Shown here: piece after piece, positions 8,984 to 62,213 of the stretch
Position numbering within the stretch: the stretch's first letter is position 1
Layout of the letters: every line of letters starts with the position of its first letter
Made by a program: the position numbers and the translations under genes
NCBI GenBank assembly: GCA_001802865.1
Contig: MHAF01000172.1
Span: forward strand, 2,157 to 66,156
Direction: 5' to 3'
DNA length: 64,000 nt
From: Ignavibacteria bacterium RBG_16_34_14
GTDB lineage: Bacteria > Bacteroidota > Ignavibacteria > Ignavibacteriales > Ignavibacteriaceae
The notes under the pieces: model-generated
Database searches by the model: none
What the model saw: the letters and a program-made list of their open reading frames with translations, nothing else
What the model was told of the DNA's origin: nothing

Positions 8984-9361
8984 TTATCTATACAACTCCT
9001 TTCTCACTGAAAAGGCATTCATTAAACCTAGTTTACCTGCTTTAAGAAAATCTTTTTGCCCTTCTTCAACTTTACCTTCATTCATTCTCGTAATACCCCT
9101 GTTGATTAGAGCCTCAGCAAAGTATGGTTTCAACTCAATAGCTTTATCATAATCTCTTTGAGCTCCATTAGTATCATTCAAAATTAATTTTGTATTTGCC
9201 CGTTTAAAGTAAGCTTCCGCAAACTTAGGATTATATTTTATTGCCATGGTAAAATCAGCAATTGCTCCTTTATAATTGTTAAGCAATTTTTTACAGTTGC
9301 CCTTACTGTAATATTCAAGAGCTTTCTGGTATAATTTGTTGGCTTTAGATTTTATTTTCAT
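8984..9361 (-). CDS. Tetratricopeptide repeat protein
   Basis: Three TPR-like units are visible (AIADFTMAIKYNPKFAEAYFKRA, AQRDYDKAIELKPYFAEALINRG). Confidence 0.75.
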   Translation of the reverse strand: MKIKSKANKLYQKALEYYSKGNCKKLLNNYKGAIADFTMAIKYNPKFAEAYFKRANTKLILNDTNGAQRDYDKAIELKPYFAEALINRGITRMNEGKVEEGQKDFLKAGKLGLMNAFSVRKELYR

Positions 9362-9459
9362 TCAGAGTTTCTCCTTTTAATCAGGTAAGATAATCCCCTT
9401 AGAATGTTTCGGCATTAATGAAGATGTAAGAGATTTGACAGAGTATAAAATAATCAAAT

Positions 9460-9705
9460 TTAATCCTCAGTATTCTCATAACATCCTGAAGCTCCTTCAG
9501 GTGCAGGTATTTGCAAAGCATCTTTATCAATCAAAAGATTCCAGATTTTATTAGATATGGAACGTGAATCTAATAATCCTTTGTTAAGAGCATTTTTATA
9601 TTCAAGTTCAATAACTTTTTTTATTAACTGACGAACTTCTTCCATTTTTTGTCCGACGTACATTTGAGTCTCTCTTTTGTTTAACTCTTTTAATTCTTTT
9701 TTCAT
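9460..9705 (-). CDS. Hypothetical protein
   Basis: This is an 81 aa charged helical ORF with no family recognised. Confidence 0.35.
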   Translation of the reverse strand: MKKELKELNKRETQMYVGQKMEEVRQLIKKVIELEYKNALNKGLLDSRSISNKIWNLLIDKDALQIPAPEGASGCYENTED

Positions 9706-10123
9706 TTCAAATAGTAAAACACATGAAGTATGCCAGCACTCTTATTTTCTATTTACATAAAAGCTTAGTTTTATTGCGCTCTATCTGTATCAAATTGTTA
9801 TGTTTTATACATTTGGGTCAAGAGATAAGAATTTAATTGCTAATTATTTACGAAATATTTTTCTATGATGAGGCGTAAAATTTACCCCGACTATCAATTC
9901 AACTTAAACAATCTCTAATGAAAGAGAAGTATCTCAGACCAGGTTTTAATGAACAAGGTTTTTATGGAAGGCTCAGAAACTTTAAATAATTTTAAATGTA
10001 CTTTCATTGAAGAGTCTTCATTTTAAAGAAGATAGTTGATATTACTTATTTATTTTCTTATTAAATTAAAAGTGTTTAATAATATTCCTTCGTATTTGAA
10101 AAAAGGTTTGGAGAAGATACTAA

Positions 10124-11278
10124 ATGAGTAAAATTCTGCCGCCGAGCGGATATAAAAAAGAAGATACTGAAAAAAGAAAAACCTGGCTGGAAAACAAAAC
10201 AGGTTTTCATCTTAATGAAGCTGGTCCCGACAGCCCGGAAGATTTTAGAGGGATAATTGAAAATCATGTTGGTTTCATGCATCTTCCTCTGGCTATTACA
10301 GGGCCATTGTTAATCAATGGTACATATGCTAAAGGAGAATTCTATATTCCTCTCTGCACTCTCGAGGGAACTTTAACAATGTCTATGACGAGAGGATTAT
10401 TTCTTACACATCTTTCCGGAGGAATCAAGACAAATCATATAAAACAGGAATTGTCAAGATCACCTATATTCATCTTTAAAGACATTGATAAGAGTAAACA
10501 ATTTATTTCCTGGATAAATGAGAATTTTGTTGAGATCAAAAGAGAAGCAGAATCAACAACAAATCATGGCAAGCTTTTAAGAATTGATAAATACCCTTCC
10601 CAAAATAGTGTTATTCTGGATTTTGTTTATAATACTGCCGAGGCTTCCGGGCAAAATATGGTTACAATAGCAACACACAAAGCCTGCAAATATATAAATG
10701 ATAACTATAAATGCGATTCCGGCTTCAGATATTATATTGAAAGCAATTTTAACGGAGATAAAAATCCTGCTTATAAATCGTTGCTTCTTGGGCGAAGTCA
10801 TTATGTTGTTGGAAGTGCACTTATTGAAGGAAGGTTTCTCAAGCGAATCCTTAGAGTTAGTTCAAAAGAATATGTTGATGGCTGGACACAGTGTACAAGG
10901 GGTTCACAGGAAGCAGGTATATTCGGAATGAATATGCATGTAGCAAATGCTCTTACCGCTATTTATTTGGCAACTGGTCAGGATGTTGCAAGTGTTGTCG
11001 AGAATACAGGCGGAATTATTTCCTATGAAGTAAGAAACTCTGACGATCTCTATGCAACTATTACAATGCCTTCAATAACAGTTGGAACAGTTGGCGGCGG
11101 GACTAGATTAAAGCAGGCAAGAAAAAATCTTGAGCTTTTAGGATGTACCGGCAAAGATTCTTCAAAGAAGCTTGCGGAAATTGTTTGTGCCTGTGCCCTT
11201 GCGCTTGAGTTATCTCTTGGCGGTGCAATTGTTTCAGATGAATTTGCTTTTTCTCATGCCAAGTATGGGAGAAAGTGA
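10124..11278 (+). CDS. Hydroxymethylglutaryl-CoA reductase-like (class I catalytic domain) oxidoreductase
   Basis: IENHVGFMHLPLAITGPLLINGTYAKGEFYIPLCTLEGTLTMSMTRG and ...TVGTVGGGT are HMGR catalytic-domain signatures. Its TGA abuts the GTG start of the next gene. Confidence 0.75.
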   Translation: MSKILPPSGYKKEDTEKRKTWLENKTGFHLNEAGPDSPEDFRGIIENHVGFMHLPLAITGPLLINGTYAKGEFYIPLCTLEGTLTMSMTRGLFLTHLSGGIKTNHIKQELSRSPIFIFKDIDKSKQFISWINENFVEIKREAESTTNHGKLLRIDKYPSQNSVILDFVYNTAEASGQNMVTIATHKACKYINDNYKCDSGFRYYIESNFNGDKNPAYKSLLLGRSHYVVGSALIEGRFLKRILRVSSKEYVDGWTQCTRGSQEAGIFGMNMHVANALTAIYLATGQDVASVVENTGGIISYEVRNSDDLYATITMPSITVGTVGGGTRLKQARKNLELLGCTGKDSSKKLAEIVCACALALELSLGGAIVSDEFAFSHAKYGRK

Positions 11279-12019
11279 GTGATTTCAATTCGTTCCGAAC
11301 TGGAGACTGCCATAGTTCCTCCTGAGTATTCTCACGTATTACAAAAGCCCGATCTTATAAGTATATCAATAAAGAAAATTTTTGAAATCTACTGTAAAAT
11401 TCTTTTTACGATTTATTGTCCTTTGAAAATAATTGGGAGGGAAAATATCCCCAGGTCTTCTTCATTTATTTTTTGCAGCAATCATAACAGCCATATGGAT
11501 AGTGGAATTTTGATGGTTGCATCAGGTCTCCCTTTTAAAAATTTTGCAATGATGGCAGCAAAGGATTATTTTTTTGATAATGATAAGCGGAAATATTACC
11601 TTAACCTGCTTATGAACTTAATACCTATAGATAGAGATTCCGACAGGAAATCTATGATTAATTATCTTGCGGCTTGCAGAGAATTTACAAGAGCCGGCAA
11701 CCGCAACCTTATTATTTATCCTGAAGGAACCCGCTCATTAACAGGGAAGATACAACCATTCAAAAAAGGACCTGCGATGATCTCTGCAGAACTTGGTCTT
11801 CCAATTGTTCCTGCACTTATTAAAGGATCATTTAATGCCTGGCCTAAAGGAAAAATTTTTATGAGGCCTTCAAGAATAACAATAAGGATTGGTAAACCTA
11901 TTTTACCAAATGACTACATTTGTAATGGTGACCGGGAAGGAAATAACTTCCAGGCTTATAAAAAAATAACAGAAGAACTAGAGAAAAGGGTTCACGAATT
12001 AAAGAATGCCGGAGCTTAG
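11279..12019 (+). CDS. Glycerolipid acyltransferase (PlsC/GNPAT family)
   Basis: The HX4D motif (NHNSHMDS) and YPEGTRS motif are present. The gene overlaps the next gene by 14 nt. Confidence 0.8.
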   Translation: MISIRSELETAIVPPEYSHVLQKPDLISISIKKIFEIYCKILFTIYCPLKIIGRENIPRSSSFIFCSNHNSHMDSGILMVASGLPFKNFAMMAAKDYFFDNDKRKYYLNLLMNLIPIDRDSDRKSMINYLAACREFTRAGNRNLIIYPEGTRSLTGKIQPFKKGPAMISAELGLPIVPALIKGSFNAWPKGKIFMRPSRITIRIGKPILPNDYICNGDREGNNFQAYKKITEELEKRVHELKNAGA

Positions 12020-13775
12020 AATGCTTAATGTTGAGCAGATGAAATGGTGGGGATGGGGAGGTGAAAATATTGAATTTAATATGGATGATAAACCTGAACT
12101 TTGGCCATATATTAAAGATATCGTAGGAATTGAAGGCGAAGTTAAATTTACTCCCTCATTTAAATTTGATGATATCGAACTTACTCAGCAAACATTAAAC
12201 GATAAGTTTATTAATCATGTAAAATCTTTTATTGATCCTGAACGATTTAAATTTGATAAAAAAGAAAGACTAATTCATTCTTATGGAAAAAGTTTTAGAG
12301 ACCTTTGGAGAATAAGAAACGGTATTGTAAACGCTTCTCCTGATTGCGTGATTTATCCTTTATCTGAAAATGAAATATTAAACGTAATAAAAGCCGCTCT
12401 GGATTACGATGTTGTGATGATTCCTTTCGGTGCAGGTTCAAATATTGCAGGATGCCTTGAAGCCAATAATGGCAGTGGGAGAATGATTGTTTCTCTTGAT
12501 ATGAAGCTTATGGATAAAGTTATCAGTGTTGATAAGCAATCAAATACCGCAAGGATACAAGCCGGTGCCTTAGGTCCTATGCTGGAAAAACAGCTTAATT
12601 CTCATGGTTTTACTCTTGGTCATTTCCCGGATTCATTTGAATATTCTACCATTGGCGGATGGATTGCAACAAGGTCTGCAGGAATGCAGAGCGATAAATA
12701 CGGTAAGATTGAAGATATGGTCCTCTCACTCCGAATGGTAACTCCAACAGGTACAATAGTTACACGTACTGTTCCTAAGTCTTCAAACGGAATTGATGTT
12801 AACCATATTTGTATAGGAAGCGAAGGAACTCTTGGTGTTATTACCGAAGCAGTAATGCAAGTACATAAACTTCCTAAATATAGAGTTCCCTACGGATATC
12901 TTTTCCCGGATTTTGAAAGCGGAGTTAATGCAGTCTATGAATGTGTTGAAAAATATTGTGCCCCTATAGTAACAAGACTGAATGATCCTGGTAAAACAGC
13001 TCTTTCTTTTGCATACAAATCAAAATCTTCACCTCTTAAATCTTTACTTGGTAAAGTTGTTAAATCTTATTTAAAGAATATTAATAAGTTTGATTTCGAT
13101 AAAGTTTGCCTTTTGCTGACTGTATTTGAAGGTAATAAAGAAAACTTTTCTGAAATGAAAAGGAAAGTCAATAAAATTTACAAAAAGCATGGTGCCTTTA
13201 ACCTTGGAACAGAACCAGGTAAAGCTTTTGAAAAAGGCAAATATGATTTCCCTTACCTGCGGGATTATGTAATGGATAGAAATGTAATGGCTGATGTGAG
13301 TGAGACTTCAACTGTATGGAGTAATCTTCTTCCTTTATACTATTCAACAATGGAATCAATTGATAAAGCAATGAAGTACCGCTTTAGCGGGATTAAAAAA
13401 GGTTTTTTGGGATGCCATATAAGTCATACTTATCATACCGGCGCAAGCTTATATTTTACTTTTGGTTGCCAACAGGTTCCAGGATATGAGCTTGAACAAT
13501 ATCTTCTTATAAAAAAAGCCGCCGAAGATGCTTTTATAAAGGGTGGGGCTACATTGTCTCACCATCATGCTGTTGGTTTTGAGCATATGCCCTGGATTAA
13601 AGATGATATTTCTGAAACTGGAATAAAAGCGGTGAGAGGATTAAAATATTCTCTTGATCCAAATAATATTATGAATCCTGATAAAATTATTCCTCCACTT
13701 GAGAAACCTTTTAACTGGGGTTTAGAAAAGAAGGATTTAGAGAAACTTGAAAATGGATACAATGTTCTTAAATAA
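12006..13775 (+). CDS. FAD-linked oxidase, alkyldihydroxyacetonephosphate synthase (AGPS)-like
   Basis: The N-terminal MKWWGWGGE recalls the AGPS KWNGWGY motif. The PCMH FAD domain shows PFGAGSNIAG and FPDSFEYSTIGGWIATRSAGMQSDKYGKIEDMV. LSHHHAVG near the C-terminus recalls the AGPS HHHGVG motif. Confidence 0.7.
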   Translation: MPELRMLNVEQMKWWGWGGENIEFNMDDKPELWPYIKDIVGIEGEVKFTPSFKFDDIELTQQTLNDKFINHVKSFIDPERFKFDKKERLIHSYGKSFRDLWRIRNGIVNASPDCVIYPLSENEILNVIKAALDYDVVMIPFGAGSNIAGCLEANNGSGRMIVSLDMKLMDKVISVDKQSNTARIQAGALGPMLEKQLNSHGFTLGHFPDSFEYSTIGGWIATRSAGMQSDKYGKIEDMVLSLRMVTPTGTIVTRTVPKSSNGIDVNHICIGSEGTLGVITEAVMQVHKLPKYRVPYGYLFPDFESGVNAVYECVEKYCAPIVTRLNDPGKTALSFAYKSKSSPLKSLLGKVVKSYLKNINKFDFDKVCLLLTVFEGNKENFSEMKRKVNKIYKKHGAFNLGTEPGKAFEKGKYDFPYLRDYVMDRNVMADVSETSTVWSNLLPLYYSTMESIDKAMKYRFSGIKKGFLGCHISHTYHTGASLYFTFGCQQVPGYELEQYLLIKKAAEDAFIKGGATLSHHHAVGFEHMPWIKDDISETGIKAVRGLKYSLDPNNIMNPDKIIPPLEKPFNWGLEKKDLEKLENGYNVLK

Positions 13776-14589
13776 GAATATTGTTATTACCGGGGCATCT
13801 TCAGGACTTGGTGCCGCACTCGCAAAAGAACTTGCTTCACATAAACCAAATCTTATTCTCTTTTCCAGGAATATTGATAAGCTTAAAGAAGCTGCAAAAT
13901 TCTGTAATGAAAAGGGAGCTAATGTAATTTCCGTTCAGGGAGATGTAACTAAGCTTGAAGATTGTAAAAGATTAGTTGAAACAACAATAAATAATTTTGG
14001 CTCTGTTGATCATCTTGTTCTTAATGCTGGTATAAGCATGTGGGCTAAGTTTGATGAGGTAACCGACCTTTCTTTATTCCAAAAATTAATTGAAACAAAT
14101 TACCTGAGTGCTGTTCGCTTAGTTCATCTTTTCCTTCCATATCTAAAAAAAAGTAAAGGTCTAATAACTGCTATCTCATCTATCCAGGGCGAAATTGCCG
14201 TACCTTATCATTCAGGATATGTTGCATCCAAGCATGCTTTAACCGGATTTTTAAATACGTTAAGAATGGAGCTTTCCGCCAAAGGCGGATCCGTTGGAAA
14301 AGATAAGGGTGTGGATGTTATGCTTGTTAAACCTCACTGGCTCAGAGGGACCGACCTAAGAAAAAATGCTTTTGATAAAAATGGAAATAAGATTGGTGAA
14401 ACAAAGAAAGAGCACAGCAAAGAATCAATTAGTCTCCAGGAATGCAGCAGAAAAATTCTTAAAGGAATGGTAAACAGAAAAAGAGAGTTAGTAATTCCTG
14501 GAAAATTAAAATTGTTAACAATACTGAGCTTGCTGTTGCCTAATTTAGCAGAGAAGATTGTTTTAGGGAAGCTAAATGAACAAGAATGA
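13747..14589 (+). CDS. Short-chain dehydrogenase/reductase with hydrophobic C-terminal tail (acyl/alkyl-DHAP reductase candidate)
   Basis: TGASSGLG, NAG and YxxxK (YVASKHAL) motifs are present. The track start at 13747 is TTG, with ATG alternatives at 13753 and 13762. The gene overlaps the end of the AGPS-like gene. Confidence 0.8.
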   Translation: MKMDTMFLNKNIVITGASSGLGAALAKELASHKPNLILFSRNIDKLKEAAKFCNEKGANVISVQGDVTKLEDCKRLVETTINNFGSVDHLVLNAGISMWAKFDEVTDLSLFQKLIETNYLSAVRLVHLFLPYLKKSKGLITAISSIQGEIAVPYHSGYVASKHALTGFLNTLRMELSAKGGSVGKDKGVDVMLVKPHWLRGTDLRKNAFDKNGNKIGETKKEHSKESISLQECSRKILKGMVNRKRELVIPGKLKLLTILSLLLPNLAEKIVLGKLNEQE

Positions 14590-14674
14590 GATTGACTCTT
14601 CAAATTAAAAACCATCCAAGGGATAATTACTATCTTGTCAAATATTGTGGTATGGTTGACTTATTTAATGTAAA

Positions 14675-15835
14675 TTGCGTCAGTTAAATGACGGATTTTA
14701 TATGAATATAGTCAGAGTAGCTCAAGATCTCATTACTAAAAAAATCAAACCCGGGAAAGTAATTGTTATTCTTGGTGCGAGAAGAGTCGGAAAAACCTTT
14801 CTCCTTAAAGAATATGTTAAAGAAATTAAAGAAAAATATATTTTCTGGAACGGAGAAGATTTCGCAGTTCAGGAATTATTGAAACGAAGGAGTGTTCAGA
14901 ACTATAGAAATGTCCTTGGGAATGCTGAGTTACTCATTATTGATGAAGCTCAAAAAGTTCCAGAGATCGGGAGTATATTAAAACTTTTAGTTGATTCATT
15001 TGAGGAACTGAAAATTATTGTAACAGGCTCATCGGCATTTGATATAACAAATTTGACTGGAGAACCGCTAACAGGAAGAAAGTATGAAATTCAATTATTC
15101 CCGGTTTCTGAAAATGAGTATTCGCAATTTGAAAAACCTGAAGAAAAAAAAGATAACCTAAGACAACGACTAATTTATGGTAATATGCCCGAATTGAGTA
15201 ATTATCAAGATCAAAAAGATAAAAGAGAATATCTAAGGGATTTGATCAATTCTTATTTGCTTAAGGATATACTTGTATTAGAAAATATCAGAAACTCTGC
15301 AAAGATATTCGACCTCCTTAAACTGATCGCATTTCAAACTGGGAATGAAGTTTCACTGCAGGAAATCGGAAGTCAGCTATCAATATCTAAAAATACAGTT
15401 GAAAAATACTTGGACCTTCTTACAAAAGTTTTTATAATATACAGATTGAATGGCTTTAGTAGAAATTTAAGGAAAGAAATAGTTAAAAATTCAAAATGGT
15501 ATTTTTATGATAACGGAGTCAGGAATGGAATCATTGCAAACTTCAATCAGCTCGGTTTAAGAGATGATGTTGGACTGCTATGGGAAAATTATATGCTCGG
15601 TGAAAGAATTAAACACCAGCATTATTCCGGGATGACAGTTAATAATTATTTCTGGAGAACCTACGACCAGCAGGAAATTGATCTTGTTGAAGAACGGGAT
15701 GGAAAATTATTTGTTTATGAGCTTAAATGGAAACAGGGTAAAACTAAAATACCAGTCGCCTGGCAAAATGCTTATCCCGATTCTCAATTCAAAGTAATTA
15801 CACAAGAAAATTATTATGAATGGTTAACGGAATAA
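14675..15835 (+). CDS. AAA+ ATPase with DUF4143-type C-terminal domain (COG1373-like)
   Basis: Walker A is GARRVGKT and Walker B is LLIIDEAQ. The C-terminal region reads NYFWRTYDQQEIDLVEE...YELKW. A more likely ATG start is at 14702. Confidence 0.75.
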   Translation: MRQLNDGFYMNIVRVAQDLITKKIKPGKVIVILGARRVGKTFLLKEYVKEIKEKYIFWNGEDFAVQELLKRRSVQNYRNVLGNAELLIIDEAQKVPEIGSILKLLVDSFEELKIIVTGSSAFDITNLTGEPLTGRKYEIQLFPVSENEYSQFEKPEEKKDNLRQRLIYGNMPELSNYQDQKDKREYLRDLINSYLLKDILVLENIRNSAKIFDLLKLIAFQTGNEVSLQEIGSQLSISKNTVEKYLDLLTKVFIIYRLNGFSRNLRKEIVKNSKWYFYDNGVRNGIIANFNQLGLRDDVGLLWENYMLGERIKHQHYSGMTVNNYFWRTYDQQEIDLVEERDGKLFVYELKWKQGKTKIPVAWQNAYPDSQFKVITQENYYEWLTE

Positions 15836-15838
15836 TGC

Positions 15839-16014
15839 ATAGCAAAGAATCAATTAATCTTGAAGAATGCAGCAGAAAAATTATAAAAGGAATGGTAAAC
15901 CGAAAAAGAGAGCTGGTTATACCAGAAAAATTAAAACTCCTAACACTGCTGAATTTACTTTTTCCTAGTTTAGCTGAGAAGATTGTTATGGGGAAAGTTA
16001 AAGAACAGGAGTAA
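15839..16014 (+). pseudogene. Relic second copy of the SDR gene 3' end (last ~58 codons)
   Basis: HSKESINLEECSRKIIKGMVNRKRELVIPEKLKLLTLLNLLFPSLAEKIVMGKVKEQE* aligns with the SDR C-terminus HSKESISLQECSRKILKGMVNRKRELVIPGKLKLLTILSLLLPNLAEKIVLGKLNEQE*. It begins immediately after the ATPase stop codon. Confidence 0.8.
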
Positions 16015-16074
16015 TATTATCTTTTCAATTCCTAAATGAAAAATTAAATAAATGCCAACTAAAGGAAGGTTTGA

Positions 16075-17545
16075 TTAAACTTGTGCTGCTATGAGAGTTG
16101 TATTCTGATAGAAGTAGGATTTTTGTTTTTCTTTAAGAGGTGATGATTTAGGTAATTGATAGAATTTCATCAATGATACTACTGACTTACTAGTAGTTCC
16201 ATTGAAACTGAAAAAATCATTAGAAAGTACAATTTTTTTAGCTTCTTCAAGCTGTTGGTTTGTGAGATTTTTTAATTGGTTACGCCACTTATTAGTCAAG
16301 TTTATATTATCATAATGGTTACGCCACAAAATAAATGGCTCAGGCATCATAAGTATTTCAAAGTATTCTTCTATATTTTTTCCAAAAGCTCTCTCAAAGA
16401 AAGATGTTCCTGGCATTCCTATTCCTCTTGTAACATTTAAAACACATTGTACTGCCCTTAAATATTTTCTATTCCAATGTTTGCCAATATATTTTCGATC
16501 AAGAGATTCATATCCATATAGTGGGATAAATTTCATTGGGAAGGAAAAATTATTTGAATTTAATTCTTTATGTAAATCAACATTAATTTTTAAACGTTCC
16601 CAGAGATGTTCAGGTTTATCCACATAATTGAAGAGTATATAATTTGATAATTCCTTAACCCCCATATTTGTCTGCCAATCTGATTGCGTTTTCATACTTT
16701 TCTTTTAAAGAAATATGATCAAAAGCAATTCGCATTGGTCTTATTGGAATTTGACTTAATAATTTCATTTTCTCTTCATCAACATATCTGCAATCTATAC
16801 CTTGATTGAAGTCCACATATCTATTTTTAGGTGTTTTGAGACGATATTTTTCCACATAATAATTTAATTCATCTTTGGATTCAAGAATCAATTCTTTCTT
16901 TATATTCTCTTTTTTATTAATTCCGTATAAAGTCAATAAAGATAAGTAATTTAACTTATCTTCTTTTTTAGTAATTCTGTTAAAAATATATTCGTTTAAA
17001 TATTCATAAATTCTTTTCTCATATCTGCTAATATTCAATTGATCTTTTTCATTCTTTATATAATTGCAAAGAATATCAAATTTATTTGGCGGAGTAAATT
17101 TAGAGCCGACACCAAATCCCATTTCAACAATTTCTTCAATTATCTTGGGAAATAATGGTGAGCCTAAAACATTATTATCCATCAGGATTAAATCTTTTCG
17201 ATCACCATGTTTTTTCTTTATTAGGTCGAGCTGCTGATTTATTGATATTTTATCTTTGTAAATCGGTTCAAGTTTAGGTACAGCGCAAAAGCTACATGTT
17301 CTTGTACAACCTCGTGTCATATATGTTAAATATCCGGTGTCGAGTGGATATTTATGATCAATGGTTTCGAGAATGCTATAATCTGGTGTTAACTCATCAA
17401 TATTTATTTCATTATCATCCAGAATACCAGGTTTATCTAATAAGCCAGTGATAATATTTTTTCCTACTATTAAATCTGCCTCTTTTGCGATTATATCCGG
17501 TATAATGATGCTGCAACACCTCCGTGATATATTATAGTTGTCCAA
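16075..17545 (-). pseudogene. Large radical SAM enzyme (~489 aa if repaired), split by a frameshift in a G5 run
   Basis: The CX3CX2C motif is GCTRTCSFCAVP. ORFs 16655..17545 and 16075..16695 join seamlessly if one G of the run at 16659-16663 is removed: ...AIRLADKYG-VKELSNYILFNYVDKPE... Confidence 0.75.
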
Positions 17546-17581
17546 ATTATTTAGAGAATAGGCAAGTATTGAAATAAAATT

Positions 17582-18463
17582 TTATATGCGATAGTCTAAA
17601 GAAAGAATGATAAAAGGAATATTAAAAATATTTTTTATGTATGGAAATTCGGTTTTTGCTTTATTAAAATCCATCATTCCAGAATATTTAGATCTAATTT
17701 CCATCACAGTTTTATAAGCATTACTACTACCAAGCACACATAAATGTCTTGCAAATTTTGTTGAAGGAACAATTAGGCCACCTAGCTTAATTAAACCAGA
17801 ATTATAGGACATAACAAACTTTACTATATCCTGATAATATGTTCTTGCATTGCCAAACTCAGCTTCCAATTGAAAATATTCTTTTCTATAATCGCATTTT
17901 AGTTTAATCCTATTGTCATTAACAACCTTTTGTTCGTTGAGCCATCCTGAGTTAGAGAGTTGTTCTTTTAATCTTAGATTATAATGCATCTGTCTTTTGT
18001 CTTCTTCATAAGGGATATTTCTTACGGCTTGGATAATTTCTAAAATTCTTTGATCATATGACAATATACTCTTATCGAGCTTATGAATTATTATATCAGA
18101 GAAGAACAAGTTATTATCTGATGATATTGGGAATCCTTTGATTAGAAAGTTGTCATTATTGAGTATTTGCACTTCAATAAATTCATTGAGAGCTGGTTTT
18201 TCTTTTTGGAAGGTTTCTTTAAATGTATTTTTGAGCCAGCTACTAAAAGTATTCCCAAATTTCCCATCATATCTAATCTGTAAATGTCCGGGTGAGTTAT
18301 TTAAGCGACATAACCAACCAATAGAAGTTTGATTATCTCCAAAAACCAAATTGATTTTTCTTCTATTGCCCTTCTCGGGAACAGTCAAATTAGAATACAT
18401 TTTTTTAGGTATCGTGAATCCATATCTAAATGTAGATTTACCTATAATATGTTTAAAAGTCAC
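17582..18463 (-). CDS. Restriction-endonuclease-like protein: N-terminal barrel-like DNA-binding-type domain plus C-terminal BglII/BamHI-like PD-(D/E)XK domain (tentative)
   Basis: D191-X8-E200-A-E202 (KCDYRKEYFQLEAEFGN) followed by K215 and GGLIVP has the same D-X8-E-X-(E/Q) spacing as BglII. The N-terminal FRYGFTIPKKMYSNL resembles B3/EcoRII-N or AbrB-like strands. The GTG start overlaps the upstream stop (GTGA). Confidence 0.45.
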   Translation of the reverse strand: MTFKHIIGKSTFRYGFTIPKKMYSNLTVPEKGNRRKINLVFGDNQTSIGWLCRLNNSPGHLQIRYDGKFGNTFSSWLKNTFKETFQKEKPALNEFIEVQILNNDNFLIKGFPISSDNNLFFSDIIIHKLDKSILSYDQRILEIIQAVRNIPYEEDKRQMHYNLRLKEQLSNSGWLNEQKVVNDNRIKLKCDYRKEYFQLEAEFGNARTYYQDIVKFVMSYNSGLIKLGGLIVPSTKFARHLCVLGSSNAYKTVMEIRSKYSGMMDFNKAKTEFPYIKNIFNIPFIILSLDYRI

Positions 18464-19500
18464 GATACTTTCCTATAATATTTTTTAAGTTTATCCCCGC
18501 TATCATCATAACAACAAGTTACATTTCGCTCTTGCAAAATTGCAGCAGATATTTCATCTATTAAATCTGTTTCAAAACCATCTTGCTTTTCTTTTTCGGT
18601 AACTGCTATTTTCTCAATTTTAATTATCCCTTCAAGTGGTCCCCGTGTATATTTTTTTTCTCTTATTCTTAAATACCATGCACCAATTACTGTTTTAAAT
18701 TTCCTCCCACTTTGTGGTTCATATCTATAAACAGGTGTTCTCTCACCATATTTTAATGCAGTCAAATAACTTCCAATTTCTTTGCTCTTTGTTTTTAAAA
18801 TACCTTGCAAATTTGGATTAAAAGATTTTGAAACCCCAATTACATTATGAAATATATATTCTTGCTCTAATTTAATGTTTGTGTATTGAAGTGAACCATC
18901 AATCATTAAGATTTCACCAGTATTCAATAAATTCGATGTTACCATTTTGTCAATTAAAACTATTTCTTCATCTAACATTTCTTTCTGAATTTTTGCTATA
19001 GCAAGATTTTCAGGTGGCCTTTGCATATTTGTTTGATGTTTATATTCAACAACTCTTTCAACTCTAATATTATTCTTAACAGTTTTATTTATTTCATTCC
19101 TAATATTTTCAAATTCACCACCAGTTCTATCTGGTAAAGCAATTATATTAAATTTTATTAAGTGCAGATTTTTTATTGACTTATTTTCTCGTTTACATAC
19201 CGCAGTTCCAATTTGTCCTGCTACAATTGGTAAATATTTCCCATCAGTTGATGCAAAATCAACAACTTTATAAGTACGCCTTGAACCATCAAGAAAATAT
19301 TTAAATAAAGATATATCCGTATAGAACTTTGTAATTTTTCTTTTCTCTGGAACTTTATTTGTTTCAAATATTTTTGAAGTGTTAAACTTTTCATCCTTAT
19401 CTTGGTACTCGTCCGGGTTTATATCGTCTAAATGAAGTTTGTTGGAAGGGAAACACTTACCCCCACTAAATTTTTCAACAACTTTAAGAATCGTTCCCAT
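18460..19500 (-). CDS. NurA-like (RNase H-fold) nuclease candidate with two DGS motifs (tentative)
   Basis: FLDGSRR (D71) and LMIDGSLQ (D201) flank an acidic helix (QKEMLDEE), as in NurA-family nucleases. No ATPase/HerA partner is adjacent. Confidence 0.35.
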   Translation of the reverse strand: MGTILKVVEKFSGGKCFPSNKLHLDDINPDEYQDKDEKFNTSKIFETNKVPEKRKITKFYTDISLFKYFLDGSRRTYKVVDFASTDGKYLPIVAGQIGTAVCKRENKSIKNLHLIKFNIIALPDRTGGEFENIRNEINKTVKNNIRVERVVEYKHQTNMQRPPENLAIAKIQKEMLDEEIVLIDKMVTSNLLNTGEILMIDGSLQYTNIKLEQEYIFHNVIGVSKSFNPNLQGILKTKSKEIGSYLTALKYGERTPVYRYEPQSGRKFKTVIGAWYLRIREKKYTRGPLEGIIKIEKIAVTEKEKQDGFETDLIDEISAAILQERNVTCCYDDSGDKLKKYYRKVS

Positions 19501-19746
19501 AAAGATTATTTTTATTCTTGATAAATAATTTTAAATATCTCAATTTATTATTCATCAAATCATTCCCCCAGCAGCTTAGAAAAGAAAGATGGAGGAAGTA
19601 AAATTACAGTTGCGTTCTTCCTGTGCCATTATTAACGTTCAAAAAATACTAATAAGTCTTTTCAGTTAAAATAACTTTTCTAAAAAAGTAGAAATAGGCA
19701 GGAAATTTAAAGAAGCGCTTCCCCCAAAATCCACTTTACAATAATT

Positions 19747-20007
19747 TTATAATTCCCTCTCTTTCTTTTTCTCTTCTTGCAATACTTTAAGCAAACTGCT
19801 CTTTCCTTTCAAAAACCCTCTATTTTTATCAATTAATTGCGGTGTTATGGTAATAATCTTTATCCCATCCTCTCCTTGCGAAATATTCACACGAGTCCCT
19901 AGCTTTATTCCATATTTTTTTCTGAGCTTAACAGGAATTGTTAAACGTCCTTGAGATTTTACAAAACCAATTTCCAATCTATTTCTCCATATCTTTAAAA
20001 TATTCAT
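19747..20007 (-). CDS. AbrB/MazE/SpoVT-family DNA-binding protein (antitoxin-like)
   Basis: GRLTIPVKLRKKYGIKLGTRVNI is a swapped-hairpin SpoVT/AbrB motif. No toxin gene lies downstream. Confidence 0.6.
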   Translation of the reverse strand: MNILKIWRNRLEIGFVKSQGRLTIPVKLRKKYGIKLGTRVNISQGEDGIKIITITPQLIDKNRGFLKGKSSLLKVLQEEKKKEREL

Positions 20008-20239
20008 CCATTCTCTTCAAAATCTTTTCCTTTTCTTCATCAGAAAAATCATTTTCATAGAAGCGGAGGAACAATCTTTTTCTTATTTCATTTTCGGGAA
20101 GGTTTTCAGGGAATGATGAAAGAACAATCTTTCTGGCAGTTTCAAACATTTCAAGTCCCATTAATAATCTTTCTTCACCGGAAAGTTTAGCAAATAATTC
20201 ATCCTGAATTTTTTTTGCTTCGGGGCTGGTATCATTCAT
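19979..20239 (-). CDS. Hypothetical small helical protein, partner of the nucleotidyltransferase-fold gene
   Basis: This 86 aa ORF overlaps the upstream gene by 8 nt and the downstream gene by 29 nt, an operon-like arrangement. Confidence 0.4.
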   Translation of the reverse strand: MNDTSPEAKKIQDELFAKLSGEERLLMGLEMFETARKIVLSSFPENLPENEIRKRLFLRFYENDFSDEEKEKILKRMDEYFKDMEK

Positions 20240-20774
20240 CTTTTACACTCATAAGAAAATCATAAAGATCTAACTTTTTTGCCCATTCAAATAAGTATTC
20301 TTTATCGTAAGTTGAAGTTAATAAATTTTTAATATCTCTTTTCTGTAATTCTGAATCAGAATCTTTTGCCCAGCTTAACTTTGAAAGGATTAAATCTTCT
20401 TTACTAACAATAAAAAGTTCAATACCAGAAAACTTTACTTTTCTTCTTCTGTTAAACTCAACAATCCTATATTCTTCTGATTTCCGGATAACAAAATCAA
20501 TTTTAATTGAGCTTCCCAAATGAATAAGATTAAACATAAAAGGATGTTCAATTGAATCTTTGATTGCTTCTGGTGAAATATAATATCCATTTTCAAAGAT
20601 TCTTACAAAATTTTCTATCTGAATTTTACTTAATTCAATAACTATATCAATATCTCTCGTCATTCTCGGTTGAGAATAATACATCATTGCTAATGAACCC
20701 GTTAACATATAATGAACATTTAAAGAAGAAAGATTTTCTGTTACATCTTTAAGTATGTCAAGCTCCGTTTTCAA
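20232..20774 (-). CDS. Nucleotidyltransferase-fold protein (GS-X-DxD type, TA/abortive-infection-like)
   Basis: LTGSLAMMYYSQPRMTRDIDIVIE is a minimal NTase hG[GS]...DxD motif. A paralog lies at 46503..46976. Confidence 0.55.
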   Translation of the reverse strand: MKTELDILKDVTENLSSLNVHYMLTGSLAMMYYSQPRMTRDIDIVIELSKIQIENFVRIFENGYYISPEAIKDSIEHPFMFNLIHLGSSIKIDFVIRKSEEYRIVEFNRRRKVKFSGIELFIVSKEDLILSKLSWAKDSDSELQKRDIKNLLTSTYDKEYLFEWAKKLDLYDFLMSVKDE

Positions 20775-20784
20775 GATTATTATT

Positions 20785-21210
20785 TTATTGTAATGATAAA
20801 TTTATGGAGGATTCGGCATAATCATCTGCACTTTCATAAATCCGGACAGATACTTTATTGATATTTTTTGGCAGGCTTATCTTCTTTATCTCATTAAGAA
20901 AATATTTACATATATTTTCTACTGTTGATTGAAATTCAACAATCACCATTTTTGATTTCATCTTTTCAAGGAATGAGATTATCTCTTTATCTTGGTTATA
21001 TACCATAAAAGCATGATCCAGTTTTTCAATTATTGGATTAACTATTTTCTTTACATCATAATAATCCATCACCATTCCCGATTCAGCCACATCACCTTCA
21101 AGTTCAATAATCATTTTATAAGAATGTCCATGAATATTTTTGCATTTATCAAAATGTTCCGGTAAACGATGCCCCATTTCCCAATGGAATTCTTTTGCAA
21201 TCTTCATCAA
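20785..21210 (-). CDS. queD: 6-carboxy-5,6,7,8-tetrahydropterin synthase
   Basis: FHWEMGHRLPEH...CKNIHGHSYK is the zinc and catalytic motif of the QueD/PTPS family. The gene overlaps queE by 4 nt. Confidence 0.85.
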   Translation of the reverse strand: MMKIAKEFHWEMGHRLPEHFDKCKNIHGHSYKMIIELEGDVAESGMVMDYYDVKKIVNPIIEKLDHAFMVYNQDKEIISFLEKMKSKMVIVEFQSTVENICKYFLNEIKKISLPKNINKVSVRIYESADDYAESSINLSLQ

Positions 21211-21845
21211 ACACCTTTAGCAGTTGGAACCCAGATAAACTTATGCATCTGAAGTTGGAATCTTGCATTTAATTTATCCTCAAGTATCCACTCGACTAAT
21301 GTTACTGGTTCAAGTTCACCAAATACAACTGAGAAAAGAATGCTGCATTTGTTTGTGAGATTATATTTTTCAATTAACTCTTTAGACCAATCATAATCTT
21401 CCCTGTTTCCAATTACAAACTTTATTTCATCGGTTGGTTTTATAAAATCAATATTGTCGTAAAGATTTTTTTTCAGCATTCCACTTGAAGGGCATTTAAG
21501 ATCCATTATAATCATTACTCTCTGATCAACACTTTTTATGGAAAGACTTCCACCCGTTTCCAGCATAACTTTGTAACCTTCATCAGATAATCTTTTCAAC
21601 AGGTCAATACATTCATCCTGGACAAGAGGTTCCCCCCCTGTTACTTCCACCAATTTACAATCATACTTTTTTACCTCATCAATTATTTGCTCAATTGTAT
21701 AATCTTTTCCCTCATAAAAAGCATATTCGGTATCGCAATAAGTACAACGGAGATTACAGTAAGTTAATCGTACAAAAATACATGGTAATCCGGCTTTGGA
21801 ACTTTCTCCCTGAATGGAGAAATATATTTCGTTTATTTTAAGCAC
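21207..21845 (-). CDS. queE: 7-carboxy-7-deazaguanine synthase (radical SAM)
   Basis: INEIYFSIQGESSKAGLPCIFVRLTYCNLRCTYCDTEY is the QueE signature. The start codon is GTG. Confidence 0.85.
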   Translation of the reverse strand: MLKINEIYFSIQGESSKAGLPCIFVRLTYCNLRCTYCDTEYAFYEGKDYTIEQIIDEVKKYDCKLVEVTGGEPLVQDECIDLLKRLSDEGYKVMLETGGSLSIKSVDQRVMIIMDLKCPSSGMLKKNLYDNIDFIKPTDEIKFVIGNREDYDWSKELIEKYNLTNKCSILFSVVFGELEPVTLVEWILEDKLNARFQLQMHKFIWVPTAKGV

Positions 21846-61754: not shown

Positions 61755-62213
61755 CTATGAAAAACTTAATAATACTTTTGCTTTAATAATATTTTTGAAT
61801 TTAACAATAATTTCTTTTTTATCCTTTGTTAGAAATTTTAGCTCATCAGCCTGAACTTCAATTAACTGAGCCTCTGTGTTTTTGGTTTCATCATCCTGCA
61901 GATAAGCGAGTTCAAATTTCTTATTTAAATGCTTTGGGAACTGCTCTATAAACTTTAATGGTCTGTCAACTCCAGGAGAAGAAACATCAAGCCTGTAAAA
62001 CTTATCCTGTCCAATAATATTTTGAATCTTATTGTTTAATTCCCGGCTTACCTTAGAGCAATCATCAGCATTAATATAATGCTCACCATCAATATAAACT
62101 TCAATCACCTGGTTTCTTCCATGACCTCTGAGATTGAAATCAATCAGGAAATAACCGAAGTTTGTGACAACTTCTTCTGTAATCTCTTTAATATTTCCTG
62201 CATTAATATTCAT
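61755..62213 (-). CDS. rimP: Ribosome maturation factor RimP
   Basis: It is the first gene of the conserved rimP-nusA-infB operon, and ...YRLDVSSPGVDRPL is the RimP motif. Confidence 0.85.
   Translation of the reverse strand: MNINAGNIKEITEEVVTNFGYFLIDFNLRGHGRNQVIEVYIDGEHYINADDCSKVSRELNNKIQNIIGQDKFYRLDVSSPGVDRPLKFIEQFPKHLNKKFELAYLQDDETKNTEAQLIEVQADELKFLTKDKKEIIVKFKNIIKAKVLLSFS

What the first reader, a model, noticed from the sequence alone, without database searches (positions are those of the whole stretch)
10124..14589. Four-gene translationally coupled operon resembling a complete eukaryote-style ether-lipid (alkyl-DHAP) pathway, with an HMG-CoA-reductase-like enzyme as candidate fatty-alcohol-forming reductase
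The gene order is HMGR-like (10124..11278), PlsC/GNPAT-type acyltransferase with HX4D (11279..12019), AGPS-like FAD enzyme (12006..13775) and SDR with a hydrophobic tail (13747..14589). All junctions abut or overlap. The AGPS-like enzyme has N-terminal KWWGWGGE, a PCMH FAD domain and C-terminal SHHHAVG. In the peroxisomal pathway the steps are DHAP acyltransferase, AGPS (which swaps the acyl group for a fatty alcohol), an SDR-type acyl/alkyl-DHAP reductase, and a fatty acyl-CoA reductase that supplies the alcohol. Three of the four activities have obvious candidates here. HMGR chemistry is a four-electron reduction of a CoA thioester to an alcohol, exactly what the missing fatty-alcohol step needs. 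No other mevalonate-pathway gene is in the window. A repurposed HMGR fold making fatty alcohol for bacterial alkylglycerol lipids would be new biochemistry.
Basis: inference. Interest (0 to 1): 0.7.

Follow-up and report, generated by a model that had tools for sequence, protein, structure and literature searches.

The report
Bacterial ether-lipid operon with FcrA reductase
Four tightly packed genes in an Ignavibacteria genome very probably make ether-linked (alkyl-glycerol) membrane lipids, and the fatty alcohol they need most likely comes from a repurposed HMG-CoA-reductase-like enzyme (FcrA) whose activity was shown in another bacterium in 2025; the conserved four-gene package looks undescribed, but the chemistry is not new.

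Summary
Four same-strand ORFs sit exactly at the stated coordinates, and their junctions abut or overlap.

- **Gene 3** is a true alkyl-DHAP synthase (AGPS). It scores E=1e-137 to Dictyostelium AGPS and keeps R419, Y578 and the HHH loop.
- **Gene 1** has the class-I HMGR fold and catalytic tetrad. It lacks the HMG-carboxylate binders (S684→E, K692→N, K735→Q, L862→F).
- That pattern is the published signature of FcrA, an HMGR homologue shown in 2025 to reduce long-chain acyl-CoA to fatty alcohol and not to reduce HMG-CoA (PMC11948995).
- **Synteny:** FcrA–acyltransferase–AGPS–SDR recurs in the same order in 63 of 84 fetched loci. Most of the remaining loci are cut short by a contig end. The carriers include Ignavibacteria, Caldithrix, Marinimicrobia, Planctomycetota, Gemmatimonadales and Verrucomicrobiota. 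The flanking genes differ between lineages.
- The 64-kb window holds no mevalonate, MEP or wax-synthase gene.

FcrA is characterised, and its authors already suggested it may feed AGPS. What I found in no paper is this conserved, self-contained cassette. It is a variant of the Myxococcus AGPS–FAR/GNPAT operon with a non-homologous reductase.

The acyltransferase and SDR substrates are inferred. Actual ether-lipid production is untested.

The parts
9706..10123 (+). AT-rich 418-nt upstream intergenic region. It is the presumed promoter region and carries a Shine-Dalgarno-like GGAGAA at 10110-10115, 8 nt before the ATG.
   Evidence: Sequence read directly. The sigma-70 consensus scan found fewer sites than shuffled controls and gave no convincing promoter, so the promoter is inferred only.
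10124..11278 (+). FcrA-type fatty acyl-CoA reductase. It has the class-I HMG-CoA-reductase fold without the N-terminal Lad domain. Predicted reaction: NADPH-dependent four-electron reduction of long-chain acyl-CoA to fatty alcohol.
   Evidence: PF00368 at 342 bits. TIGR00533 at 279.9, below the 441.8 cut-off. Catalytic E81/K213/D287/H378 correspond to human E559/K691/D767/H866. S684→E206, K692→N214, K735→Q256 and L862→F374 come from the alignment to 1dq8. E at 684 is present in 84/84 loci and F/W at 862 in 83/84. The residues are collinear with the N. pharaonis FcrA residues given in PMC11948995. The protein is nested among FcrA-like representatives.
11279..12019 (+). PlsC-type acyltransferase (HX4D = HNSHMD at H69-D74; PEGTR block at 148-152). 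Inferred role: DHAP acyltransferase that makes 1-acyl-DHAP. The alternative role is sn-2 acylation of 1-alkyl-G3P.
   Evidence: PF01553 at 80 bits. The only solved relative is T. maritima PlsC 5kym, E=7e-21. The motifs are invariant in 76-78 loci. The gene lies immediately after FcrA in 78/84 loci. All 120 best homologues are single-domain proteins, mostly about 245 aa. The substrate was not tested.
12006..13775 (+). Alkyl-dihydroxyacetonephosphate synthase (AGPS, EC 2.5.1.26). [quoted passage not shown]
   Evidence: E=1.4e-137 (463 bits) to Dictyostelium AGPS 2uuu over residues 48-562, and 1.7e-88 to guinea-pig AGPS 4bby. The next families (glycolate oxidase, D-LDH) score about 1e-24. R324/Y483/H519-521 correspond to R419/Y578/H615-617 and are invariant in 70/70 loci.
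13747..14589 (+). Classical short-chain dehydrogenase/reductase with a hydrophobic C-terminal helix. Inferred role: NADPH-dependent 1-alkyl-DHAP (acyl/alkyl-DHAP) reductase that gives 1-O-alkyl-sn-glycerol-3-phosphate.
   Evidence: PF00106 at 152 bits. NF004825 at 268, above the 215 cut-off. TGASSGLG, R41 after beta-2 (NADPH type), N93, and Y158-x3-K162 are conserved in 64 loci. The gene follows AGPS in 63 of 84 loci. Solved relatives are unspecific SDRs, including 11beta-HSD1. The substrate was not tested.

Best explanation
The four genes form one operon that builds the ether-lipid precursor 1-O-alkyl-sn-glycerol-3-phosphate by the AGPS ('peroxisomal-type') route. The route needs no oxygen.

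1. The FcrA-type enzyme (HMGR fold) reduces a long-chain acyl-CoA with 2 NADPH to a fatty alcohol.
2. The PlsC-type acyltransferase acylates DHAP to 1-acyl-DHAP.
3. AGPS swaps that acyl group for the fatty alcohol and forms 1-O-alkyl-DHAP.
4. The SDR reduces the C2 ketone with NADPH.

Housekeeping PlsC and head-group enzymes would then finish plasmanyl (alkyl-acyl) phospholipids.

**Shown here:** gene layout, family membership, active-site residues and conserved synteny.
**Taken from the literature:** FcrA-family activity and AGPS chemistry.
**Inferred:** the substrates of the acyltransferase and the SDR, and actual lipid production in this organism.
For: - **Layout.** Abutting or overlapping same-strand ORFs.
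- **AGPS identity and residues.**
- **FcrA signature.** The catalytic tetrad is kept. S684→E, K735→Q and L862→F match PMC11948995. The score is below the HMGR equivalog cut-off.
- **Family placement.** 127 of the 150 nearest 50%-identity cluster representatives carry the FcrA-like pattern. The true S/K/K/L HMGR pattern first appears at 233 bits. In a neighbour-joining tree the window protein sits in a compact clade with cassette-linked proteins, inside the FcrA-like radiation.
- **Published biochemistry.** Purified Pb-FcrA uses NADPH, reduces C14-C18 acyl-CoA to alcohol, does not reduce HMG-CoA and is not inhibited by statin.
- **Synteny.** The order FcrA→AT→AGPS→SDR is complete in 63 of 84 loci. 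The carriers are Ignavibacteria, Caldithrix, Marinimicrobia, Planctomycetota, Gemmatimonadales, Verrucomicrobiota and sponge-associated lineages. Gammaproteobacterial loci (Legionellales, Halothiobacillaceae) carry FcrA, AT and AGPS without a detected SDR. Most of the other incomplete loci end at a contig edge. No flanking gene family is shared by more than 11 loci.
- **Precedent.** M. xanthus has an AGPS–FAR/GNPAT operon, and deleting its AGPS gene blocks ether lipids (PMC13012113).
- **Window content.** No mevalonate, MEP or wax-synthase gene in the 64 kb.
Against: - Nothing from this cassette has been tested biochemically. The characterised Pb-FcrA carries an N-terminal Lad domain that this protein lacks. 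Its sequence was not on hand, so the relation rests on signature residues and an unbootstrapped neighbour-joining tree.
- The acyltransferase is a generic 246-aa PlsC-type enzyme. Its best solved relative is a lysophosphatidate acyltransferase. None of its 120 closest homologues is a FAR–GNPAT fusion. Its use of DHAP is purely contextual.
- The SDR has no specific similarity to a known alkyl-DHAP reductase.
- Three Planctomycetota loci carry the FcrA homologue without the other genes (L042, L046, L051).
- Whether the genome has a mevalonate pathway could not be checked.
- I found no lipid data for Ignavibacteria.
Confidence: 0.72

Rival explanations
1. Same pathway, but the cassette acyltransferase works at the other end. 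It acylates the sn-2 position of 1-alkyl-G3P, giving 1-alkyl-2-acyl-G3P. The 1-acyl-DHAP would then come from a housekeeping acyltransferase encoded elsewhere.
For: The closest solved relative is a 1-acyl-G3P acyltransferase, T. maritima PlsC. The protein is small and single-domain, unlike GNPAT or FARAT. The TIGR00530 AGP_acyltrn domain is hit, though below cut-off.
Against: Ten loci (Verrucomicrobiota and a few Marinimicrobia) carry a second PlsC-type acyltransferase after the SDR. That fits two distinct acyl-transfer steps, with the conserved first one feeding AGPS. AGPS needs acyl-DHAP, and no ordinary bacterial pathway is known to supply it in quantity (established knowledge). In Myxococcus and in eukaryotes the acyltransferase linked to AGPS and FAR is the DHAP acyltransferase.
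Confidence: 0.17
2. The HMGR-like enzyme mainly supplies fatty alcohols for wax esters or free alcohols, the role first shown for FcrA. Its position next to AGPS would then be secondary.
For: FcrA was discovered as the wax-ester reductase. About 26% of bacteria that carry WS/DGAT have FcrA. Three Planctomycetota loci have the homologue without AGPS.
Against: No WS/DGAT domain was found in the 64-kb window. The gene abuts or overlaps the acyltransferase, AGPS and SDR genes, and this order is kept across several phyla. The FcrA authors themselves note that FcrA often occurs without WS/DGAT.
Confidence: 0.07
3. Gene 1 is an ordinary class-I HMG-CoA reductase that makes mevalonate for isoprenoids, and it merely lies next to lipid genes.
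For: There is a strong Pfam HMG-CoA_red match, and source databases name its homologues 'hydroxymethylglutaryl-CoA reductase'. The catalytic tetrad and R590 are intact.
Against: S684, K692 and K735, which hold the HMG carboxylate, are E, N and Q. L862 is Phe. The score is below the TIGR00533 cut-off. There is no mevalonate gene in the window. Linkage is to AGPS, not to mevalonate genes, in about 70 genomes. A characterised family member does not reduce HMG-CoA.
Confidence: 0.03

Closest known systems
FcrA, the HMGR-related fatty acyl-CoA reductase (Pb-FcrA of 'Ca. Promineifilum breve'; the Natronomonas pharaonis homologue; ISME J 2025, PMC11948995)
   Same: It has the class-I HMGR fold and the conserved catalytic E/K/D/H tetrad. 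Glu replaces S684, Lys735 is lost, and a bulky aromatic residue replaces L862. The residue spacing is collinear with N. pharaonis FcrA at an offset of 154-155.
   Different: It lacks the N-terminal Lad or ACP domain of the characterised proteins. It has Phe rather than Trp at position 862. It sits in a tight operon with AGPS rather than being associated with WS/DGAT. In P. breve the AGPS gene lies nine genes away. The activity of this subclade has not been measured.
Myxococcus xanthus operon MXAN_1676-MXAN_1675-MXAN_1674 (AGPS plus the FAR–GNPAT fusion 'FARAT'; Lorenzen 2014, PMC13012113)
   Same: It is a bacterial operon that joins AGPS to an acyltransferase and a fatty-alcohol-forming reductase. 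The pathway logic is the same.
   Different: In M. xanthus the reductase is a FAR domain fused to the acyltransferase. Here it is a separate, non-homologous HMGR-fold enzyme. The acyltransferase here is a small stand-alone PlsC type. A dedicated SDR is part of the conserved core. No CarF/PEDS1 desaturase is nearby, so alkyl lipids rather than vinyl-ether lipids are expected.
Eukaryotic peroxisomal ether-lipid pathway (FAR1/2, GNPAT, AGPS, DHRS7B/PexRAP)
   Same: It has the same four activities in the same chemical order. The AGPS here is a close homologue of eukaryotic AGPS (463 bits, E=1e-137, to the Dictyostelium enzyme).
   Different: The reductase and the acyltransferase are not GNPAT-type or FAR-type. 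The genes are encoded as one operon. There is no organelle.
Other bacterial ether-lipid routes: ElbD (Myxococcus), and PlsA/PlsR and Ger (anaerobes)
   Same: The end products are bacterial sn-1 alkyl or alkenyl glycerolipids.
   Different: These are unrelated enzymes: a multidomain ACS-ACP-FAR-AT protein, or reductive conversion of an ester to an ether or vinyl ether. None of them uses AGPS or an HMGR-fold reductase.

Membership tests
FcrA (HMGR-related fatty acyl-CoA reductase, PMC11948995) | Class-I HMGR catalytic domain with the catalytic Glu559/Lys691/Asp767/His866 conserved | tested here: met
   PF00368 at 342 bits. E81/K213/D287/H378 align to the human residues. They are invariant in 83-84 of 84 loci.
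FcrA (HMGR-related fatty acyl-CoA reductase, PMC11948995) | Ser684 replaced by Glu; the conserved HMG-binding Lys (K735, printed as 'Lys795' in the paper) replaced; Leu862 replaced by a bulky residue | tested here: met
   E206, Q256 and F374. Across loci: E in 84/84, non-Lys in 82/84, and F/W in 83/84. Solved true HMGRs (human, Arabidopsis, M. thermolithotrophicus) show S/K/L in the same alignments.
FcrA (HMGR-related fatty acyl-CoA reductase, PMC11948995) | Branches in the monophyletic FcrA clade together with the characterised Pb-FcrA | tested here: inconclusive
   A neighbour-joining tree of 154 sequences places it inside the FcrA-like radiation, away from S/K/K/L HMGR representatives.
FcrA (HMGR-related fatty acyl-CoA reductase, PMC11948995) | Reduces C14-C18 acyl-CoA with NADPH; no activity on HMG-CoA; insensitive to statins | not testable with these tools
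   This needs enzyme assays.
FcrA (HMGR-related fatty acyl-CoA reductase, PMC11948995) | Host genome lacks the rest of the mevalonate pathway | tested here: inconclusive
   No mevalonate or MEP gene was found in the 64-kb window. The rest of the genome could not be searched.
Canonical class-I HMG-CoA reductase (TIGR00533 equivalog) | Scores above the curated equivalog cut-off | tested here: not met
   279.9 bits against a cut-off of 441.8.
Canonical class-I HMG-CoA reductase (TIGR00533 equivalog) | HMG-carboxylate contacts Ser684, Lys692 and Lys735 present | tested here: not met
   These are E206, N214 and Q256.
Alkyl-DHAP synthase (AGPS, EC 2.5.1.26) | PCMH-type FAD domain plus cap domain, with solved AGPS as by far the closest relatives | tested here: met
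   PF01565 plus PF02913. 2uuu at E=1.4e-137 and 4bby at 1.7e-88, against about 1e-24 for glycolate oxidase and D-LDH.
Alkyl-DHAP synthase (AGPS, EC 2.5.1.26) | Active-site Arg419, Tyr578 and the His615-His617 'HHH' loop (guinea-pig numbering) | tested here: met
   R324, Y483 and H519-521 align to them. They are invariant in 70/70 loci.
Alkyl-DHAP synthase (AGPS, EC 2.5.1.26) | Exchanges the acyl group of acyl-DHAP for a fatty alcohol | not testable with these tools
   This needs an enzyme assay or lipid analysis.
GNPAT / DHAP acyltransferase | GPAT/AGPAT-family catalytic motifs (HX4D and the PEGTR block) | tested here: met
   HNSHMD and YPEGTRS. PF01553.
GNPAT / DHAP acyltransferase | GNPAT-type architecture: a large enzyme, or a fusion to FAR as in MXAN_1675/FARAT | tested here: not met
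   It is 246 aa with a single domain. The best solved relative is PlsC 5kym. All 120 closest homologues carry PF01553 only and are mostly about 245 aa.
GNPAT / DHAP acyltransferase | Uses DHAP as acyl acceptor | not testable with these tools
   This is inferred only from position between FcrA and AGPS in 78 loci.
Acyl/alkyl-DHAP reductase (SDR type, e.g. DHRS7B, Ayr1) | Classical SDR with TGxxxGxG, catalytic Ser-Tyr-Lys and an NADPH-type basic residue | tested here: met
   TGASSGLG, S145, Y158, K162 and R41.
Acyl/alkyl-DHAP reductase (SDR type, e.g. DHRS7B, Ayr1) | Specific relationship to a characterised alkyl-DHAP reductase | tested here: inconclusive
   Solved relatives are generic SDRs at E of about 1e-22, with 11beta-HSD1 among them. 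No DHRS7B or Ayr1 sequence was on hand.
Myxobacterial AGPS operon (MXAN_1676-1674) | FAR domain fused to the acyltransferase (FARAT, PMC13012113) next to AGPS | tested here: not met
   The reductase here is PF00368 and is a separate gene.

The most novel reading that the evidence does not exclude
The FcrA–AT–AGPS–SDR cassette may be a self-sufficient, horizontally spread, oxygen-independent ether-lipid module. If so, it would be a major and so far unassigned genetic source of 1-O-monoalkyl glycerol ether lipids in uncultured marine and sediment bacteria such as Marinimicrobia, Verrucomicrobiota, Planctomycetota and Ignavibacteria. Ether-lipid supply, rather than wax-ester synthesis, would then be the primary role of much of the FcrA family. 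In addition, the two deep AGPS lineages that occupy the cassette (a Dictyostelium-like one and an animal-like one) would mark separate bacterium–eukaryote transfers of AGPS.
Probability: 0.25. Interest if true: 0.65.

Novelty: new variant of a known kind. Interest (0 to 1): 0.45.

Why it matters
Non-isoprenoid alkyl glycerol ethers are widely used environmental biomarkers, yet for most bacterial lineages the genes that make them are unknown. A compact four-gene cassette is present in at least about 60 species-level genomes from several mostly uncultured phyla. That gives a directly testable genetic marker for AGPS-type ether-lipid synthesis that needs no oxygen. One heterologous-expression experiment would test it. 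The cassette would also give FcrA a second physiological role beyond wax esters. It further shows non-orthologous replacement of the fatty-alcohol step in a pathway shared with eukaryotes. This bears on current work on the bacterial origin of eukaryotic ether-lipid genes.

Tried and rejected
- **Promoter and terminator scan of 9300-16000.** It found fewer promoter-like sites than shuffled controls and no convincing terminator after the SDR gene. It was uninformative.
- **Supplement of the FcrA paper.** I searched for Ignavibacteria, AGPS, Marinimicrobia and Verrucomicrobia and found nothing.
- **Literature on Ignavibacteria.** Searches for ether lipids and for mevalonate versus MEP usage gave nothing usable.
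- **Prior description of the cassette.** Only the FcrA paper links HMGR-like enzymes with AGPS, and only as a suggestion.
- **FAR–acyltransferase fusions among acyltransferase homologues.** I looked for these to tie the acyltransferase to GNPAT/FARAT. There were none among the best 120.
- **Extra conserved neighbours.** No neighbour is shared beyond lineage level, apart from a second acyltransferase in 10 loci.
- **Genome-level mevalonate/MEP check.** It was not possible.
- **Structure prediction.** I did not run it. The tools return no coordinates or pocket volumes, so it could not add to the residue-level test.
- **Bona fide HMGR reading.** I considered and rejected it on active-site and cut-off grounds.


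Full report
**1. Observation**

The ORF listing returns four + strand ORFs at exactly the reported coordinates:
- 10124-11278, 384 aa
- 11279-12019, 246 aa, GTG start
- 12006-13775, 589 aa
- 13747-14589, 280 aa

The junctions are tight. The stop codon of gene 1 is followed at once by the start of gene 2. Genes 2 and 3 overlap by 14 nt. Genes 3 and 4 overlap by 14-29 nt, depending on which start codon is used.

A 418-nt AT-rich spacer precedes gene 1. It carries GGAGAA 8 nt before the ATG.

Pfam assigns HMG-CoA_red, Acyltransferase, FAD_binding_4 plus FAD-oxidase_C, and adh_short. All quoted motifs (KWWGWGGE, SHHHAVG, HX4D, hydrophobic SDR tail) are in the translations.

**2. The FAD enzyme is AGPS**

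- Against all PDB sequences, the best match is Dictyostelium alkyl-DHAP synthase 2uuu (E=1.4e-137, 463 bits, residues 48-562).
- Next is guinea-pig AGPS 4bby (E=1.7e-88).
- Glycolate oxidase and D-lactate dehydrogenases reach only about 1e-24.
- NCBIfam GlcD scores 152 against a cut-off of 568.
- In the alignment to 4bby, the AGPS active-site residues Arg419, Tyr578 and His615-617 are matched by R324, Y483 and H519-521.

**3. The HMGR-like enzyme is an FcrA-type reductase, not an HMGR**

It scores 279.9 bits on TIGR00533, whose equivalog cut-off is 441.8.

Aligned to human HMGR 1dq8:
- The catalytic residues are kept: E559, K691, D767 and H866 correspond to E81, K213, D287 and H378. R590 is also kept.
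- The residues that hold the HMG carboxylate are changed: S684→E206, K692→N214 and K735→Q256.
- L862 on the closing C-terminal helix is F374.
- In the same output, the solved true HMGRs (human, Arabidopsis, Methanothermococcus) have S/K/K/L.

A literature search found ISME J 2025, PMC11948995. That paper describes FcrA, a class-I HMGR homologue.
- The purified enzyme from 'Ca. Promineifilum breve' uses NADPH and reduces C14-C18 acyl-CoA to fatty alcohol.
- It does not reduce HMG-CoA and is not inhibited by simvastatin.
- The authors define FcrA by three features: retention of the catalytic tetrad, Glu in place of Ser684, loss of the conserved HMG-binding Lys, and a bulky residue in place of Leu862.
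- The window protein meets all three.
- The N. pharaonis FcrA residue numbers given there (E236, E360, K367, G411, D441, W528, H532) are collinear with the window residues at a constant offset of 154-155. The window protein is therefore the FcrA core without the N-terminal Lad domain.

An exhaustive HMMER search of 1.84 billion cluster representatives found 689 relatives at E≤1e-30.
- Among the 150 best, 127 carry the FcrA-like pattern.
- Only 3 carry the HMGR pattern, the first at 233 bits.
- A neighbour-joining tree puts the window protein in a compact clade with proteins from other cassettes, nested in the FcrA-like radiation. The tree has no bootstrap and the Pb-FcrA sequence was not on hand, so clade membership is suggestive rather than proven.

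**4. The other two genes**

*Acyltransferase.*
- It has HNSHMD and YPEGTRS.
- Its only solved relative is the Thermotoga 1-acyl-G3P acyltransferase PlsC (E=7e-21).
- Its 120 closest homologues are all single-domain, mostly about 245-aa proteins, with no FAR fusions.
- It is PlsC-type. I infer DHAP as its acceptor from context only.

*SDR.*
- It has TGASSGLG, an Arg after beta-2 that is typical of NADPH-dependent SDRs, Y158-x3-K162, and a hydrophobic C-terminal helix.
- It passes NF004825 (268 against 215), a family with no assigned function.
- It has only generic solved relatives.

**5. Conservation elsewhere**

Look-ups of three homologues from different phyla showed the same four-gene order.

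A scan of one genome per GTDB species, using an alignment of homologues, returned 80 loci. tblastn with the four window proteins gave these results over the 84 loci held:
- All four genes are detected, in the order FcrA→AT→AGPS→SDR on one strand, in 63 loci.
- Most of the other loci are cut short by a contig end.

The carriers are:
- Ignavibacteria (up to 93% identity)
- a 'Bacteroidetes' MAG
- Caldithrix
- Marinimicrobia
- Planctomycetota
- Gemmatimonadales
- Verrucomicrobiota
- two sponge-associated lineages

There are a few exceptions.
- A Halothiobacillaceae MAG has FcrA, AT and AGPS, but no SDR was detected.
- A Legionellales MAG carries AT-AGPS-FcrA, a different order and with no SDR detected.
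- Three Planctomycetota loci with long flanks have the FcrA homologue alone.

Signature residues hold throughout:
- Glu at position 684 in 84/84 loci.
- Phe or Trp at position 862 in 83/84.
- The AGPS triad in 70/70.
- The acyltransferase and SDR motifs in nearly all.

Clustering of flanking ORFs found no family shared by more than 11 loci. The four genes therefore form the conserved unit.

**6. Surroundings**

Pfam scans covered every non-nested ORF of at least 150 aa except 61755-62213. They show housekeeping genes:
- GH97 and an M23 peptidase
- LigA, RsmB, FtsK, PNPase, IF-2, NusA and BacA
- a variable island at 14.7-21.8 kb

There is no mevalonate-pathway, MEP-pathway, WS/DGAT or CarF/PEDS1 gene.

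A 100%-identical fragment of the acyltransferase is deposited as a hypothetical protein of 'Ignavibacteria bacterium RBG_16_34_14'. That is probably the source organism.

**7. Mechanism**

The best-supported model is the AGPS route.
1. FcrA makes the fatty alcohol.
2. The acyltransferase makes 1-acyl-DHAP.
3. AGPS exchanges the acyl group for the alkyl group.
4. The SDR reduces 1-alkyl-DHAP to 1-O-alkyl-G3P.

General phospholipid enzymes would finish the lipid. AGPS chemistry needs no O2 and no desaturase is present, so saturated alkyl (plasmanyl) lipids are expected.

- *Shown here:* layout, family identity, active-site residues and synteny.
- *From the literature:* FcrA-family activity and AGPS chemistry.
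- *Inferred:* the substrates of the acyltransferase and the SDR, and lipid production in this organism.

The rivals are:
- the acyltransferase acts at sn-2
- FcrA mainly serves wax-ester synthesis
- gene 1 is a true HMGR

**8. Comparison with what is known, and novelty**

The closest system is the M. xanthus operon MXAN_1676-1675-1674. There AGPS sits next to a FAR–GNPAT fusion, and deleting MXAN_1676 blocks ether lipids (PMC13012113). The window cassette follows the same logic, but the reductase is replaced by the non-homologous FcrA. It also has a small separate acyltransferase and a dedicated SDR.

The FcrA paper already proposed that some FcrA feed ether-lipid synthesis. It noted that an AGPS gene lies nine genes from Pb-FcrA, and that a plsC-like gene lies beside fcrA in Coxiella.

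The enzyme chemistry is therefore known and the link has been anticipated. The tight, widely conserved four-gene cassette appears undescribed in the searchable literature.

It is a new variant of a known kind, of moderate interest.

Noticed in passing
window 12006-13775 versus L065:9858-11615 (Marinimicrobia locus): Two deep AGPS lineages fill the same slot of the cassette. The window type scores 463 bits to Dictyostelium AGPS and 301 to guinea-pig AGPS. The Marinimicrobia type scores 435 to guinea-pig and 265 to Dictyostelium. The two bacterial types are only 31% identical to each other, and both keep R419/Y578/HHH. Amoebozoan and animal AGPS thus each have a different closest bacterial relative.
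   Followed up: partly
L002 12425-13081, and 9 further loci (Verrucomicrobiota and some Marinimicrobia): A second PlsC-type acyltransferase (about 220 aa) lies just downstream of the SDR. It is a candidate sn-2 acyltransferase and would make a five-gene version of the cassette. It is absent from the window.
   Followed up: partly
window 14675-21845: A likely variable or defence island lies directly downstream of the cassette. It holds an AAA_14/DUF4143 ATPase (14675-15835, +) and a BglII-like restriction endonuclease (17582-18463, -). It also holds an unassigned 346-aa ORF (18460-19500, -) and two small ORFs at 19747-20239, one with an AbrB-like sequence by eye. The rest are a DUF6036 nucleotidyltransferase (20232-20774) and a radical-SAM protein (21207-21845).
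   Followed up: no
window 16075-17545 (- strand): Two overlapping ORFs (16655-17545 and 16075-16695) have no Pfam hit at 1e-5. The upstream one contains a CxxxCxxC motif (GCTRTCSFC) typical of radical-SAM enzymes. This may be one gene split by a frameshift.
   Followed up: no
window 11279-12019: The public record for what seems to be the same organism (Ignavibacteria bacterium RBG_16_34_14, locus A2V93_11380) annotates this acyltransferase as a 168-aa hypothetical protein (P0299, 100% identical over 68% of the query). The GTG start that abuts the FcrA stop codon was apparently missed.
   Followed up: no
representatives P0127-P0270: Many FcrA-like representatives are much longer than the window protein. 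Some are 500-600 aa with an N-terminal extension of 110-270 aa. Others are 650-1500 aa fusions. One subgroup has Ile/Leu/Val at R590 and Arg/Lys/Gln at S684. These look like undescribed architectural and active-site variants of the family.
   Followed up: no
L042, L046, L051 (Planctomycetota MAGs): FcrA homologues 56% identical to the window protein stand alone, with no acyltransferase, AGPS or SDR detected in the held DNA downstream (2.2 to 8 kb). The linkage is therefore not universal.
   Followed up: no
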